From IMG/VR virus record IMGVR_UViG_3300028985_000011: a stretch of DNA of 7,424 bases; one strand, 5' to 3'. The notes beneath the pieces are model-generated. The model did not search any database, had not been told where the DNA came from, and was given only the letters and a program-made list of their open reading frames with translations. The first letter of the stretch is position 1. Each line of letters begins with the position of its first letter. This stretch comes from a virus (Duplodnaviria > Heunggongvirae > Uroviricota > Caudoviricetes). Below are positions 57-3,952 of the stretch, one piece after another. The position numbers and the translations under genes are program-made.

Positions 57-245
57 TTATCCAGCCGGTATTTCGTTATTCAGGTTCAGCGATACTTTTT
101 TTAACGGGAGGCATTCACCGGGGATTTTTTGTTCGTCCCTTACCTGAATGCAGGATGACTTACTGTCATAAATTCCGGTAATCACATTTTGTGGCTCACC
201 CGTTATAAGAAAAACGGTCATCACCAGTGCAAATGCTGAAGTCAC
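57..245 (-). CDS. ydfD: YdfD-like small protein (62 aa) with N-terminal hydrophobic segment; GTG start overlapping the upstream stop (GTGA)
   Basis: Minus-strand ORF MTSAFALVMTVFLITGEPQNV...; GGAG Shine-Dalgarno 7 nt upstream of GTG at 243-245; hydrophobic N-terminus (FALVMTVFLITG); position immediately after dicB-like gene as in Qin prophage. Alternative ATG start at 219-221. Symbol assigned by synteny and size, not by search. Confidence 0.5.
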   Translation of the reverse strand: MTSAFALVMTVFLITGEPQNVITGIYDSKSSCIQVRDEQKIPGECLPLKKVSLNLNNEIPAG

Positions 246-430
246 TGCTGTTCTCCGATAATACCAAGTTCAAGAAGGGCAATTCTGGAAAGTATGGAAT
301 TATCATTGAGAAGATAAGGTTCATATTTTCTCATCTTAATGGCATCTTCCGTAAACTCCCGGTTACTGAGCAGAACACCAATATCAAAACAACCTTCAGA
401 CGTATTAACGTTTGGTAATAACGTTTCCAT
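242..430 (-). CDS. dicB: DicB-like cell-division inhibitor (62 aa)
   Basis: ATG at 428-430 (minus) with GAGGA Shine-Dalgarno 7 nt upstream; N-terminus METLLPNVNTSEGCF.IGV...FTEDAI matches my recollection of E. coli DicB; C-terminal half looks divergent; lies downstream of DicF-like sRNA. The six-frame track extends this ORF to a GTG at 535, which I consider unlikely. Confidence 0.6.
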   Translation of the reverse strand: METLLPNVNTSEGCFDIGVLLSNREFTEDAIKMRKYEPYLLNDNSILSRIALLELGIIGEQQ

Positions 431-485
431 TATCGCGTCCTCAACAATGAATTTTGTGATGCGGTGCCTGGTGCCTCCAGGTGAC

Positions 486-599: not shown

Positions 600-642
600 A
601 AAAAGGGCGGCAGAGCAGTCACGGAGTAAAACTGATACCGCC
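600..642 (-). terminator. Rho-independent terminator at the 3' end of the DicF-like RNA
   Basis: On minus strand GGCGG (plus 638-642) ... CCGCC (plus 606-610) followed by C then TTTTT (plus 604-600); inner CAGT/ACTG pairing possible within the loop. Confidence 0.5.
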
Positions 643-657
643 AAACGTCACCAGAAA
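600..657 (-). ncRNA. dicF: DicF-like small regulatory RNA with 3' intrinsic terminator
   Basis: Minus-strand sequence TTTCTGGTGACGTTTGGCGGTATCAGTTTTACTCCGTGACTGCTCTGCCGCCCTTTTT matches my recollection of E. coli DicF; ends in GC stem (plus 638-642 / 606-610) plus U5 tract (plus 600-604); located between the upstream ORFs and dicB-like gene as in Qin. Not verified by covariance model. Confidence 0.55.
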
Positions 658-1319: not shown

Positions 1320-1373
1320 NNNNNNNNNNNNNNNNNNNNNNNNNNNNNNNNNNNNNNNNNNNNNNNNNNNNNN
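1320..1373. other. Run of 54 undetermined bases (assembly gap or masked sequence)
   Basis: n characters from 1320 to 1373; flanking minus-strand ORFs are in different frames, so gene structure across it is unresolved. Confidence 1.
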
Positions 1374-1503
1374 AGCGACGCGCGCCAGCTTCGGTTTTAA
1401 ACGTTTTGCTTTTGGTATACGTCATGGCGGTGAATGTGCCGTCCTGGTTGGGGAACACACCACATACCAGAGATTCGCTGTTGCCAAGATCGATAGTATC
1501 CAT
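1374..1503 (-). CDS. Hypothetical small protein, first gene of the leftward operon (3' end hidden in N-run)
   Basis: ATG at 1501-1503 (minus) with GAGG Shine-Dalgarno 5 nt upstream; encodes MDTIDLGNSESLVCGVFPNQDGTFTAMTYTKSKTFKTEAGARR...; the track's TTG start at 1608 has no RBS and overlaps the predicted promoter; occupies the position of ydfA-like genes downstream of dicA in Qin. Confidence 0.45.
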
Positions 1504-1579
1504 GCTGACCTCATTACCCCTTAACGCCGGGTAGCGGAACTGTTTGCTGAGAACACCGTGCGGTGTCTTGATGGGTGGT

Positions 1580-1608
1580 AATTTAGTTTTCTCATGAATG
1601 TTGGTCAA
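1580..1608 (-). promoter_or_regulatory. Candidate leftward sigma70 promoter (dicB-operon / PL-like) with embedded operator-like motif
   Basis: On minus strand -35 TTGACC (plus 1603-1608), 17-nt spacer, -10 TAAATT (plus 1580-1585); spacer contains TGAGAAAACT (plus 1585-1594), the same core motif found at 1619-1631 and 2152-2164. Confidence 0.45.
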
Positions 1609-1616
1609 GCATTTTT

Positions 1617-1632
1617 AATGAGAAAACTCAAT
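1617..1632. promoter_or_regulatory. Operator-like near-palindrome AATGAGAAAACTCAAT (left copy)
   Basis: 13-nt identity TGAGAAAACTCAA with the site at 2152-2164; inverted arms TGAG/CTCA around AAAA; 11 bp upstream of the candidate -35. Confidence 0.45.
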
Positions 1633-1640
1633 ATTTAATG

Positions 1641-1672
1641 CAAAATAAAGCCAATACATTGAAATGTAAGGC
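1641..1672 (-). terminator. Possible weak intrinsic terminator downstream of the repressor gene
   Basis: On minus strand AAAGCC-TTACATTTCAATGTATT-GGCTTT hairpin (inner palindrome TACATTGAAATGTA at 1655-1668) followed by TTTATTTT; stem is AT-rich so strength is doubtful. Confidence 0.3.
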
Positions 1673-1692
1673 TTTAAAATTTGTGAAGGGGG

Positions 1693-2100
1693 TTACTGAT
1701 GTTTGTTACGTTTGCGAGCTTCTAGTAGCTCGGTGAATAGGCGATTAAAATTCTCAACGCGGGCACGGAGTTCGCTGATTTGTGCTTGCTGCTCTGATTT
1801 TGGAAGTGCGCGATACAATCGCAACATCTCCAACTCATCTTCCGATAAGTCTAAGGCGCTGTTGAGTGCTACTGGTGGATCTGGTGTTTTATCCTCGTCA
1901 CCAAACAGTATCCAAGTTGGTGAACATTGCAATACCTCAGCCAGGCGATGCAAATTTTGCCCGCGCGGGGCTGTATGGTCGCTTTCCCATAGTGAAATTG
2001 ATGAGCCAGATACGCCAGCGGCTTTGCTTAAATCGTTTTGACTTAAACCAACCTGTTTGCGTCTTTCTCTAATTCGTTGACCTAAAGTTTTCTCGTTCAT
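1693..2100 (-). CDS. dicA: DicA-family HTH (XRE-type) prophage repressor, 135 aa
   Basis: N-terminal HTH (QRIRERRKQVGLSQNDLSKAAGVSGSSISLWE) and the motif LQCSPTWILFGDEDK that I recognise from E. coli DicA (also 135 aa); ATG at 2098-2100 with no obvious Shine-Dalgarno; divergent from a Cro-like gene. Confidence 0.9.
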   Translation of the reverse strand: MNEKTLGQRIRERRKQVGLSQNDLSKAAGVSGSSISLWESDHTAPRGQNLHRLAEVLQCSPTWILFGDEDKTPDPPVALNSALDLSEDELEMLRLYRALPKSEQQAQISELRARVENFNRLFTELLEARKRNKHQ

Positions 2101-2121
2101 ATTTAGATATCTTAATAACCC

Positions 2122-2151
2122 TTGACTTGAGATTCCTTGAATGGTTACTAT
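2122..2151 (+). promoter_or_regulatory. Candidate rightward sigma70 promoter (PR-like) for the dicC-like operon
   Basis: -35 TTGACT (2122-2127), 18-nt spacer, -10 TACTAT (2146-2151); about 27 nt upstream of the dicC-like ATG; CTTGA direct repeats at 2121, 2126, 2136. Confidence 0.5.
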
Positions 2152-2165
2152 TGAGAAAACTCAAC
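2150..2165. promoter_or_regulatory. Operator-like palindrome ATTGAGAAAACTCAAC (right copy)
   Basis: Perfect inverted repeat TTGAG-AAAA-CTCAA (2151-2164) overlapping the -10 and predicted start site of the rightward promoter; 13-nt identity with 1619-1631. Confidence 0.5.
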
Positions 2166-2177
2166 TTTGGAGGGGTG

Positions 2178-2405
2178 ATGTTTAAATCAGACGTAATTAA
2201 TTTTTATGGGACGAAAGCCAAAGTAGCGAAAGCTGCTGGTGTTGATCCATCTGCTGTTTCTCAATGGGGGGAACTGGTTCCTGAAGGTCGCGCGATGCGC
2301 CTGCAAGAGGCATCCGGCGGGGAACTTCAGTACGACCCCAAAGTTTATGACGAATATCGTAAGGCAAAGCGGGCGGGGCGGTTGAACAATGAAAATCACC
2401 CCTGA
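2178..2405 (+). CDS. dicC: DicC/Cro-like small DNA-binding regulator, 76 aa
   Basis: ATG at 2178 preceded by GGAGGGG (2169-2175); product MFKSDVINFYGTKAKVAKAAGVDPSAVSQW...; same length as E. coli DicC and divergent from the dicA-like gene; the upstream extension to 2127 in the track lacks an RBS and overlaps the promoter. Confidence 0.8.
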   Translation: MFKSDVINFYGTKAKVAKAAGVDPSAVSQWGELVPEGRAMRLQEASGGELQYDPKVYDEYRKAKRAGRLNNENHP

Positions 2406-2940: not shown

Positions 2941-3952
2941 AAAGGTGAAAACCGGCAGTTCATCCAGTAAGTCTGTATTGACCTGGCTTGCTGATATGTG
3001 CGGTGCCGATTTGTGTGCATACCCGTCTGTATCTGCACTGGCAGAAGTAACGGAACTAAACAAAAAGACTGTGCAGGACAGCTTACGACACCTGATGGAG
3101 ATTGGGTTAATTGTTGATACCGGTGAGAGAAAAGGCAGAACAAAGCAAATTGTGGTGTACCGACTTATCGGTGTAGAAGAAAGTGTTGCCGAGCCTGAAT
3201 ACACCCAAAAACGGGAGTCTTTAAAGGTGGGTAAAATTGGTGCTGTTAATAAAAACAGTACCGAAAATGGTTATGTTTCAGCACAAAACAGACCCAAAAA
3301 CGGAACTCTTAGCTGCATGGAAAATAACCAAAGACACCCAAATTTTCCATCAAAGACACCCAAAAACGGATCACGGAACCCAAAGGAACCCAAAGATCTA
3401 AACCCCACACATAACGCACGCGAGAGTGCTCCGACCAGTGAGCAGGAAGTTTTGTCGTTACAGGCAGCACCCCTTGTATTCCTGGATGGCCTGAGCGAAC
3501 CCATCGGAAAATTTCCGATGACCGATAGCTGGTATCCGTCACGGGATTTTCGACGACGGGCTGCGTTGTGGGGGATGGCTTTGCCGGAGACAGAATTTAC
3601 ACCTGCTGAACTTGCCGCCTTCCGGGACTACTGGGCAGCGGAGGGGAAAGTGTTTACTCAGATTCAGTGGGAGCAGAAATTCGCCCGTCACGTAAATCAC
3701 GTCAGGGCGCAGGTTAAACCAGTCAGCAAGGGGGTAAACCATGCAGCAGCACCAGGTGGCACCGCATCACGGGCAGTTCAGGAAATTCGGGCAGCACGTG
3801 AGCAGTGGGAACGTGAAAACGGATTTATCAGCGACGGAAACGGTCTGGAAGCTGTGGGAACTCATGGGGGAGGTTTATTCGAACCGCTGGACCCAGAAGA
3901 ACGGGGCCGCACCTTCGAAGCTCTGGATTGCACAGATTGGCGCGATGACTGA
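2912..3952 (+). CDS. Replication initiation protein (lambda-O-position): N-terminal HTH DNA-binding domain, low-complexity linker, C-terminal DnaT-like domain
   Basis: ATG at 2912 with AGGGG 5 nt upstream (track start at 2837 is TTG without RBS); N-terminal LTWLADMCGADLCAYPSVSALAEVTELNKKTVQDSLRHLMEIGLI resembles replication-initiator HTH; C-terminal WYPSRDFRRRAALWGMALPE...FRDYWAAEG resembles DnaT-type domain; iteron-like repeats inside. Confidence 0.8.
   Translation: MSIDALRWAKKVKTGSSSSKSVLTWLADMCGADLCAYPSVSALAEVTELNKKTVQDSLRHLMEIGLIVDTGERKGRTKQIVVYRLIGVEESVAEPEYTQKRESLKVGKIGAVNKNSTENGYVSAQNRPKNGTLSCMENNQRHPNFPSKTPKNGSRNPKEPKDLNPTHNARESAPTSEQEVLSLQAAPLVFLDGLSEPIGKFPMTDSWYPSRDFRRRAALWGMALPETEFTPAELAAFRDYWAAEGKVFTQIQWEQKFARHVNHVRAQVKPVSKGVNHAAAPGGTASRAVQEIRAAREQWERENGFISDGNGLEAVGTHGGGLFEPLDPEERGRTFEALDCTDWRDD
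3290..3396. repeat. Iteron-like repeat array inside the initiator gene (candidate replication origin)
   Basis: Core CCCAAA five times (3293, 3337, 3359, 3379, 3389); 12-mer CCCAAAAACGGA at 3293-3304 and 3359-3370; 14-mer CAAAGACACCCAAA at 3329-3342 and 3351-3364 (22 bp apart); tandem GAACCCAAAG at 3376-3385 and 3386-3395; AT-rich tract 3240-3290 just upstream. Confidence 0.5.

What the first reader, a model, noticed from the sequence alone, without database searches (positions are those of the whole stretch)
1580..2165. Same 13-nt operator-like motif at three sites flanking the repressor gene
TGAGAAAACTCAA occurs at 1619-1631 and 2152-2164 (the latter a perfect TTGAG-AAAA-CTCAA palindrome), and a 10-nt version occurs on the minus strand at 1585-1594. 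The right copy overlaps the -10 of the rightward promoter; the left copies sit in the spacer of, and just upstream of, the leftward promoter. This resembles an OL/OR arrangement that lets one repressor shut both early operons.
Basis: seen in the sequence. Interest (0 to 1): 0.5.

Follow-up and report, generated by a model that had tools for sequence, protein, structure and literature searches.

The report
Prophage repressor operators, P22/Qin type
The repeated 13-base motif is almost certainly the binding site (operator) of the prophage's own repressor, laid out as in phage P22 and the E. coli Qin dicA/dicC locus; it is an ordinary lambdoid immunity switch with a recognition sequence I could not find described.

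Summary
TGAGAAAACTCAA is exact at 1619-1631 and 2152-2164, with a 12/13 copy on the minus strand at 1582-1594. An exact 13-mer shared by the two non-coding stretches has P about 0.001, and the whole 46-kb prophage has no other near copy.

The window is an E. coli lambdoid prophage. Its immunity region has the DicA/DicC (Qin) type and is collinear with P22 immC:
- a 135-aa HTH repressor, 56% identical to K-12 DicA, with an N-terminal domain homologous to P22 C2;
- a divergent P22-Cro-like DicC homologue;
- a leftward ydfA-dicF-dicB operon.

The motif copies sit at the positions of P22 OR1, OL1 and OL2. Weaker sites sit at the OR2 and OR3 positions. The PL and PRM hexamers are identical to those of P22.

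Across 15 related loci, each repressor type has its own half-site, repeated at the same positions (TTAAG in P22, TTAGN in Qin-like loci, TTGAG here). The half-site changes together with the recognition helix.

The site is a 5+4+5 inverted repeat, not a perfect palindrome. The right side probably holds three sites.

Binding is inferred, not shown. Verdict: new member (heteroimmune variant) of a well-known kind; low interest.

The parts
2151..2164 (.). OR1-equivalent operator TTGAGAAAACTCAA (5+4+5 inverted repeat). It abuts and overlaps the PR -10 and covers the expected start site.
   Evidence: Exact motif. Same position as annotated P22 OR1 and K-12 Oc.
2127..2140 (.). OR2-equivalent weak site TTGAGATTCCTTGA. 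It has one perfect half-site abutting the PR -35. Its centre ATTC is the same as in P22 OR2 and contains the PRM -35.
   Evidence: (2 arm mismatches) and alignment with P22. The PR-proximal half-site changes with repressor type in related loci. Weak on statistics alone.
2102..2115 (.). OR3-equivalent weak site TTTAGATATCTTAA, next to the repressor ATG and overlapping the PRM -10.
   Evidence: palindrome I12. Invariant in 48 close variants. In K-12 the equivalent Oa did not bind DicA in vivo (PMC3441716), so function is uncertain.
1582..1595 (.). OL1-equivalent operator (minus strand ATGAGAAAACTAAA), covering the spacer and part of the -10 of the leftward promoter.
   Evidence: Same position as P22 OL1.
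1618..1631 (.). OL2-equivalent operator ATGAGAAAACTCAA, 10-23 nt upstream of the PL -35.
   Evidence: P22 OL2 at the same position is TGAAGAAAACTTAA, with the same AAAA centre.
2122..2151 (+). PR-like promoter (dicCp equivalent): TTGACT, 18 nt, TACTAT.
   Evidence: The -35 is invariant across the family, including P22. Start site not mapped.
2109..2137 (-). PRM-like promoter for the repressor: -35 AGGAAT (2137..2132), 17 nt, -10 TAAGAT (2114..2109). The ATG at 2100 is 8 nt after the -10, so the mRNA would be nearly leaderless.
   Evidence: Hexamers and spacing are identical to the annotated P22 PRM, whose transcript starts 4 nt before the c2 ATG. Inferred by homology.
1580..1608 (-). PL-like promoter (dicBp equivalent): TTGACC, 17 nt, TAAATT.
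   Evidence: Identical hexamers and spacing in P22 PL. K-12 dicBp is TTGACC-17-TAATCT.
1693..2100 (-). Repressor gene, 135 aa, DicA type: HTH N-terminal domain, no peptidase/cleavage domain.
   Evidence: 56% to K-12 DicA; HTH_3 only; P22 C2 N-terminal domain, E 2e-15.
2178..2405 (+). Cro-like gene (DicC homologue, P22_Cro family).
   Evidence: 71% to K-12 DicC; P22 Cro 1RZS, E 2e-12.
1351..1503 (-). ydfA-like DUF1391 gene, first gene of the leftward (dicBF-type) operon controlled by PL.
   Evidence: DicF at 605-656(-) and dicB further left.
2082..2095 (-). Possible fourth, weak copy inside repressor codons 3-7 (ACGAGAAAACTTTA; 9-nt core exact). Status unresolved.
   Evidence: Not conserved in the Buttiauxella relative that keeps the other three sites.

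Best explanation
The motif is the operator of the prophage's immunity switch.

Binding model. A dimer of the 135-aa HTH repressor (DicA type, with an N-terminal domain homologous to P22 C2) binds 14-bp sites. Each site has two 5-bp half-sites (consensus TTGAG) in inverted orientation around a 4-bp A/T centre. By analogy with P22, the footprint is about 18 bp.

What each site does:
- At OR1 (2151-2164) the repressor blocks the rightward promoter that drives the Cro-like gene and the replication genes.
- At OL1 (1582-1595) it blocks the leftward promoter of the ydfA-dicF-dicB operon, helped by OL2 (1618-1631).
- Weaker sites at the OR2 and OR3 positions overlap a P22-like PRM promoter and probably tune repressor synthesis.
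- The Cro-like DicC protein is expected to use the same sites to shut off repressor synthesis.

Induction. The repressor has no cleavable C-terminal domain. Derepression is therefore expected through an antirepressor (rem is present in the same prophage), as in Qin and the Gifsy prophages.

Shown here: the sequence repeats, their positions relative to consensus promoters, homology and collinearity with P22 immC and Qin, and concerted change of half-site with recognition helix across relatives.

Inferred: actual binding, start sites, the roles of OR2 and OR3, and cooperativity.
For: 1) Three near-exact copies flank the repressor gene and occur nowhere else in the 46-kb prophage.

2) They overlap or adjoin the only sigma-70-like promoters found on the proper strands.

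3) The gene set is DicA/DicC/ydfA/DicF/dicB. In K-12, DicA represses dicCp through Oc at the same position and also represses dicBp (PMC3441716, PMC10448788, PMC7567609).

4) An unbiased half-site scan recovers the annotated P22 operators. In the window it gives TTGAG sites at the same offsets: OR spacing 25/24 bp against 25/23 in P22, and OL1-OL2 36 bp against 35.

5) The PL and PRM hexamers are identical to those of P22.

6) In 15 related loci each repressor type has its own half-site repeated at the homologous PR and PL positions. Loci with the SxSSISLW helix have TTGAG, AHVTISQW/SHVSVSQW have TTAGN, SSVSVFKW has TAAC, and P22 SNVAISQW has TTAAG.

7) P22 residues known to read the half-site (V33, Q37) and the centre (E44, N46, E48) are S, L, A, R, Q here (PMC5175364, PMC4267663). 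This fits an A-to-G change in the half-site.

8) Among 48 close variants the sites are less variable than the rest of the non-coding DNA: mean heterozygosity 0.017 against 0.065.
Against: - There are no binding or transcription data for this immunity type, and no paper in the library contains the motif.
- Conservation among close variants is only marginal by permutation (P = 0.07).
- An arms-only inverted-repeat score is not significant (P = 0.07), so OR2 and OR3 rest mainly on positional homology.
- In K-12 the sites equivalent to OR2/OR3 (Om, Oa) did not bind DicA in vivo (PMC3441716).
- Promoters are consensus predictions only.
- The OL1-OL2 spacing of 36 bp puts the two sites on roughly opposite helix faces, so cooperativity is not obvious.
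Confidence: 0.88

Rival explanations
1. The left pair (1581-1598 and 1615-1632) acts at the RNA level. Read-through transcripts from the repressor gene would fold into a hairpin that terminates or processes the RNA, and the copy at 2152 is incidental.
For: The minus-strand RNA of 1572-1640 folds at -11.3 kcal/mol, z = -3.8. The two arms are 89% complementary over 18 nt.
Against: - No U-run follows the stem.
- A separate terminator-like hairpin already lies upstream at 1642-1676.
- The loop would contain the PL -35.
- The OR1 copy on its own folds no better than shuffles (z = +0.4).
- Any two copies of a near-palindromic operator are complementary by construction.
- The positions match P22 protein-binding sites.
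Confidence: 0.03
2. The repeats are not regulatory. They are A/T-rich promoter-region sequence shared by chance, or short homology blocks left by recombination at the borders of the exchangeable immunity cassette.
For: - Lambdoid immunity regions are mosaic. Identity to other prophages drops at the edges of the repressor/operator block.
- The relaxed motif search and the arms-only score are not significant.
Against: - The exact 13-mer has P about 0.001.
- The 9-mer core is enriched 15-fold and clustered.
- The motif has dyad symmetry.
- The same positions carry different, type-specific dyads in every relative, including experimentally defined P22 and K-12 operators.
Confidence: 0.04
3. The sites are bound by a different protein than the adjacent repressor: only by the Cro-like DicC, or by a host nucleoid protein.
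For: - DicC has its own HTH, and its recognition region also differs from K-12 DicC.
- Fis, Hfq and H-NS have been implicated at the K-12 locus (PMC10448788, PMC3441716).
Against: - In P22 and lambda, repressor and Cro share operators.
- K-12 DicA binds Oc sequence-specifically (PMC3441716).
- The half-site covaries with the repressor recognition helix.
- A dyad with 5-bp arms and a 4-bp centre is the geometry of the P22 C2 N-terminal domain complex (PMC5175364).
Confidence: 0.05

Closest known systems
Phage P22 immC: C2 repressor, Cro, operators OR1-3 and OL1-3, promoters PR, PRM, PL
   Same: - Divergent repressor and cro genes.
- The repressor N-terminal domain and Cro are homologous (E 2e-15 and 2e-12).
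- Operators lie at the same offsets from the repressor ATG and from the -35 boxes.
- Operator geometry is 5+4+5 with an A/T centre.
- OL2 has the same AAAA centre and OR2 the same ATTC centre.
- PL and PRM hexamers are identical.
   Different: - The half-site is TTGAG, not TTAAG.
- Recognition residues differ: N32G, V33S, Q37L, E44A, N46R, E48Q.
- The repressor is 135 aa and lacks the C-terminal half of the 216-aa C2, described in PMC10448788 as carrying the RecA-dependent cleavage site.
- No OL3 was detected.
- The leftward operon carries ydfA-dicF-dicB.
E. coli K-12 Qin prophage dicA-dicC-dicBp locus (DicA repressor, Oc operator, dicBF operon, Rem antirepressor)
   Same: - Same gene order and sizes: DicA 135 aa at 56% identity, DicC at 71% identity.
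- ydfA/DicF/dicB lie downstream, and rem is present in the prophage.
- The strong operator abuts the -10 of the dicC-side promoter, and two sites bracket the -35 of the dicB-side promoter.
   Different: - Operator sequence: K-12 Oc is TTGTTAGTCATAACTAACAA (PMC3441716). The window motif is absent there, and the recognition helices differ, so the two are heteroimmune.
- Here the prophage is nearly full length, whereas Qin is a remnant.
Gifsy/Fels prophage repressors of Salmonella (short, non-cleavable, inactivated by antirepressors)
   Same: Short HTH repressor without a cleavage domain, and an antirepressor gene elsewhere in the prophage. The analogy is drawn in PMC10448788.
   Different: No sequence comparison was made here. 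The signal that induces rem is unknown, and LexA control was not examined.
Phage 434 repressor/Cro operators (14 bp, ACAA-N6-TTGT)
   Same: 14-bp dyad read by an HTH_3 dimer, with non-contacted central bases. This is weak homology (E 1e-4).
   Different: Different half-site and much lower protein similarity than to P22 C2.

Membership tests
Lambdoid immunity region of the P22 immC type | Divergently transcribed HTH repressor and Cro genes separated by a short intergenic region | tested here: met
   Repressor 1693-2100(-), Cro-like 2178-2405(+), 77-bp spacer. Pfam HTH_3 and P22_Cro. PDB hits to P22 C2 and P22 Cro.
Lambdoid immunity region of the P22 immC type | Repeated dyad-symmetric operators on both sides of the repressor gene, overlapping PR, PRM and PL | tested here: met
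   Three strong and two weak sites at the offsets of the annotated P22 operators. OR2 and OR3 are weak.
Lambdoid immunity region of the P22 immC type | Repressor and Cro physically bind these operators | not testable with these tools
   Needs EMSA, footprinting or ChIP.
Lambdoid immunity region of the P22 immC type | Repressor carries a cleavable C-terminal domain (the P22 C2 and lambda CI class; LexA/S24-like from general knowledge) for RecA-mediated induction | tested here: not met
   135 aa; only HTH families hit; the alignment with P22 C2 ends at residue 72. It therefore works like immC but belongs to the short DicA class.
DicA/DicC-dicBF module (Qin type) | 135-aa DicA homologue with a divergent DicC homologue | tested here: met
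   56% and 71% identity to the K-12 proteins.
DicA/DicC-dicBF module (Qin type) | Leftward operon ydfA ... DicF sRNA ... dicB downstream of the repressor | tested here: met
   DUF1391 gene at 1351-1503; DicF at 605-656, 76.7 bits; dicB annotated in the identical locus.
DicA/DicC-dicBF module (Qin type) | Same operator specificity as K-12 DicA (Oc TTGTTAGTCATAACTAACAA) | tested here: not met
   K-12 sites have different sequences. The best half-site is TGTTA/TTAGC there and TTGAG here. The window is a heteroimmune variant.
DicA/DicC-dicBF module (Qin type) | Antirepressor Rem encoded in the same prophage | tested here: met
   rem is annotated in the 100%-identical prophage of NZ_CP032204.1, outside the window. 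Its action on this repressor is untested.

The most novel reading that the evidence does not exclude
The TTGAG-AAAA-CTCAA operator and its repressor may be a natural re-wiring of P22-type recognition. Loss of the Val33 'methyl cleft' contact (V33S, Q37L) would go with the A-to-G change in the half-site. Replacing the acidic/Asn residues that P22 C2 uses for indirect readout (E44A, N46R, E48Q) would let Arg46 read the narrow A-tract minor groove directly. That would explain why all three strong sites keep an identical AAAA centre. A further possibility is that the fourth core copy, inside codons 3-7 of the repressor gene, is a real autoregulatory site.
Probability: 0.25. Interest if true: 0.35.

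Novelty: new member of a known kind. Interest (0 to 1): 0.2.

Why it matters
This immunity type is common. 797 of 5426 complete E. coli genomes carry at least 80% of the 1-kb region. It also occurs in functional phages: mEp460_ev081 and HannyBb (PMC10448788).

Knowing its operator defines an immunity (superinfection and cross-repression) group. It also predicts which co-resident prophages share control of the toxic dicBF cell-division inhibitors.

Together with P22, Qin and the other variants, it gives a natural series in which half-site and recognition helix change together. That series is useful for studying how HTH specificity evolves. It does not change any concept.

Tried and rejected
- Relaxed motif search (<=3 mismatches) in the window: 5 hits against 2.7 expected, uninformative.
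- Conservation among 48 close variants from viral contigs: the sites are less variable than their flanks, but the permutation test gives only P = 0.07, because the whole region is young.
- Arms-only dyad score against shuffles: P = 0.07. The null is inflated by A/T-rich half-sites.
- Search for further copies in the whole prophage: none beyond the immunity region, except one 2-mismatch hit and one 9-mer in coding DNA, taken as chance.
- OL3 equivalent: none found at <=2 arm mismatches.
- RNA-hairpin reading of the left pair: rejected as the primary function.
- Literature search for the motif itself: no paper.
- Structure prediction of the repressor: not run. The alignment I had contains sequences the tool does not accept, and the fold of the C-terminal half does not bear on the operator question.

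Full report
**Observation.** The sequence is as described. TGAGAAAACTCAA is exact at 1619-1631 and 2152-2164 on the plus strand. The minus-strand copy extends to 12 of 13 matches over 1582-1594. With one more base, the right copy reads TTGAG-AAAA-CTCAA. Its 5-nt arms are perfect inverted repeats, but the AAAA centre is not self-complementary, so 'perfect palindrome' is imprecise.

The repeat is unlikely to be chance:
- The longest exact word shared by the two non-coding stretches (1504-1692 and 2101-2177) is 13 nt, and only 3 of 3000 dinucleotide-preserving shuffles reached that length.
- In a 49.8-kb locus holding the 100%-identical prophage, the only copies with <=1 mismatch are these three.
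- The 9-nt core GAGAAAACT occurs five times against 0.32 expected, four of them within 580 bp around the repressor gene.

**What the region is.** The 1-kb stretch around the finding is 100% identical to a prophage integrated next to tRNA-Ser/mtfA in E. coli AR_0013. At least 80% of it is present in 797 of 5426 complete E. coli genomes. It is 91% identical to the phages mEp460_ev081 and HannyBb.

The genes are:
- a 135-aa HTH repressor at 1693-2100(-), 56% identical to K-12 DicA;
- a divergent 75-aa Cro-like protein at 2178-2405(+), 71% identical to DicC and in Pfam family P22_Cro;
- to the left, a DUF1391 (ydfA-like) gene, the DicF sRNA (605-656, 76.7 bits) and dicB.

The repressor hits only HTH families. 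Its first 72 residues align with the P22 C2 N-terminal domain (1ADR/2R1J, E 2e-15). The Cro-like protein aligns with P22 Cro (1RZS). This is therefore the 'immunity-like' dicA/dicC/dicB arrangement known from the Qin prophage, sitting here in an almost full-length lambdoid prophage that also carries rem and hokD.

**Anatomy.** The consensus scan finds exactly two promoter-like sites on the expected strands:
- rightward: TTGACT(2122-2127)-18-TACTAT(2146-2151);
- leftward: TTGACC(1608-1603)-17-TAAATT(1585-1580).

The right copy (14-bp core 2151-2164) starts at the last base of the -10 and covers the expected start site. The inverted left copy (1582-1595) covers the spacer and four bases of the leftward -10. 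The other left copy (1618-1631) lies 10-23 nt upstream of the -35.

I fetched the annotated P22 immC region and aligned it with the window. The two are collinear.
- P22 PL is TTGACC-17-TAAATT, the same hexamers and spacing as in the window.
- P22 PRM is AGGAAT-17-TAAGAT, with its transcript starting 4 nt before the c2 ATG. The window has AGGAAT(2137-2132)-17-TAAGAT(2114-2109) on the minus strand, 8 nt before the repressor ATG, and no Shine-Dalgarno sequence. The repressor is therefore probably made from a nearly leaderless PRM-type transcript. This is an inference by homology.

**An unbiased test.** For each locus I scored every possible 5-mer as a half-site in a 5+4+5 dyad, over the non-coding DNA on both sides of the repressor gene.
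- For P22, this recovers TTAAG and the annotated OR3, OR2, OR1, OL1 and OL2, with a weak hit in the OL3 region.
- For the window, it returns TTGAG with five sites at the same offsets:
  - OR3 2102-2115, TTTAGATATCTTAA
  - OR2 2127-2140, TTGAGATTCCTTGA
  - OR1 2151-2164
  - OL1 1582-1595
  - OL2 1618-1631

Centre-to-centre spacings are 25 and 24 bp on the right (P22: 25 and 23). On the left the spacing is 36 bp (P22: 35).

P22 OL2 (TGAAGAAAACTTAA) and window OL2 (ATGAGAAAACTCAA) share the AAAA centre. P22 OR2 and window OR2 share the ATTC centre, which is also the PRM -35.

OR2 and OR3 each have two arm mismatches. The arms-only score is not significant on shuffles (P = 0.07). Those two sites therefore rest on positional homology rather than on statistics.

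**Concerted change across relatives.** I collected DicA-family loci from phages and from one-genome-per-species contigs. Each repressor type has its own dyad, repeated at the homologous PR and PL positions:

| Loci | Recognition helix | Half-site |
|---|---|---|
| window, HannyBb, Buttiauxella | S(G/D)SSISLW | TTGAG |
| E. ruysiae, E. albertii, Citrobacter, PPompW | AHVTISQW | TTAGA / TTAGG |
| K-12 | SHVSVSQW | TTAGC / TTAGT (Oc TTGTTAGTCATAACTAACAA, PMC3441716) |
| phiES15, E. whittamii, LSJC7 | SSVSVFKW | (A/C)TAAC |
| P22 | SNVAISQW | TTAAG |

The Buttiauxella repressor is only 75% identical, yet it keeps TTGAGAAAACTCAG at OR1 and OL2 and the inverted copy at OL1. Two intermediate loci (C. 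braakii, Superficieibacter) have mixed half-sites.

This co-variation between the reading head and sites on both sides of the gene is the strongest computational evidence that the motif is what the repressor reads. Among 48 distinct close variants from viral contigs, the three sites are less variable than the remaining non-coding DNA (mean heterozygosity 0.017 against 0.065). The common polymorphisms fall just between and beside the sites, but the permutation test is only marginal (P = 0.07).

**Mechanism.** In P22, a C2 dimer places one recognition helix in each TTAAG half-site.
- The central 4 bp are not contacted but are read indirectly. A/T steps, especially ApA and ApT, are favoured.
- E44, N46 and E48 sit at the central minor groove (PMC5175364, PMC4267663).

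The window repressor aligns without gaps over this domain and has G32, S33, L37, A44, R46 and Q48. Changing TTAAG to TTGAG removes one of the four methyl groups, which fits the loss of Val33. That R46 reads the A-tract is a speculation.

In K-12:
- DicA binds Oc sequence-specifically, represses dicC, activates its own gene and represses dicBp.
- DicC counteracts DicA.
- The antirepressor Rem relieves repression, and DicA is not RecA-cleavable (PMC3441716, PMC10448788, PMC7567609).

By homology, I commit to the same circuit here:
- Repressor at OR1 shuts PR, which drives the Cro-like gene, the ydaT-like gene and the replication genes.
- Repressor at OL1 and OL2 shuts PL, which drives ydfA-DicF-dicB and, further on, the recombination and integration genes.
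- The Cro-like protein uses the same sites to turn the repressor off.
- Induction goes through an antirepressor.

In K-12 the OR2/OR3 equivalents (Om, Oa) did not bind DicA in vivo (PMC3441716). Their role here is therefore open.

**Rivals.**
- *RNA hairpin.* The left inverted pair could fold as RNA (-11.3 kcal/mol, z -3.8). However, no U-run follows it, the loop would hold the PL -35, and a separate terminator-like hairpin already lies at 1642-1676. Any two copies of a near-palindromic operator are complementary anyway.
- *Chance or recombination scars.* This does not explain the dyad symmetry or the type-specific sites at conserved offsets.
- *Binding by another protein only.* This is unlikely given the co-variation with the repressor helix.

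**Novelty and verdict.** The arrangement is the textbook lambdoid one and has been described for Qin. I did not find the TTGAG-AAAA-CTCAA specificity in the searchable literature. It differs from both K-12 DicA and P22, so this is a heteroimmune new member of a known kind. Interest is low (0.2). The main residual uncertainty is the absence of binding and start-site data.

Noticed in passing
window 605-656 (-): DicF sRNA gene (Rfam RF00039, 76.7 bits, full length). The leftward operon controlled by the left operators is therefore a dicBF-type operon.
   Followed up: partly
window 244-432 (-) and 59-247 (-): dicB (cell-division inhibitor) and a DUF1482 gene, by coordinate transfer from the identical annotated locus L001.
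   Followed up: no
window 1642-1676 (-): Terminator-like hairpin just after the repressor stop codon: stem UAAAGCC/GGCUUUA followed by UUUUG, -12.3 kcal/mol, z -3.9. It probably insulates the repressor transcript from the PL operon. The simple terminator scan missed it because of its long loop.
   Followed up: partly
window 2086-2094 (within 2082-2095, minus strand): A fourth exact copy of the 9-nt core GAGAAAACT lies inside repressor codons 3-7, 20 bp from the OR3 centre. It is improbable by chance but not conserved in the Buttiauxella relative. It could be a weak extra site or a coincidence of coding sequence.
   Followed up: partly
window 2109-2137 (-): The PRM-like promoter has hexamers and spacing identical to P22 PRM (AGGAAT-17-TAAGAT). 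There is no Shine-Dalgarno sequence before the repressor ATG, which suggests a nearly leaderless repressor mRNA.
   Followed up: partly
window 1320-1373: A run of 54 N (masked or unknown bases) lies at the junction of the ydfA-like gene and the next leftward gene. Two ORFs in the list therefore contain X residues. The identical locus L001 has real sequence there.
   Followed up: no
window 3198-3394 (+): Iteron-like direct repeats inside the replication (O-like / DnaT-like domain) gene. ACCCAAAAACGG-containing 24-mers lie at 3198, 3287 and 3353, and CAAAGACACCCAAA at 3329, 3351 and 3381. This is probably the phage replication origin.
   Followed up: partly
L003-L082 aligned to window 1480-2260: Among 48 distinct close variants, common polymorphisms cluster in short patches immediately beside the operators (1573-1578, 1596-1602, 1609-1612, 2165-2167). 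The operators and promoter hexamers stay nearly fixed.
   Followed up: partly
L105 36031-36282 (outside the window): The same prophage encodes Rem, the antirepressor that relieves DicA repression in K-12 Qin (PMC10448788), next to hokD. What induces it is unknown.
   Followed up: no
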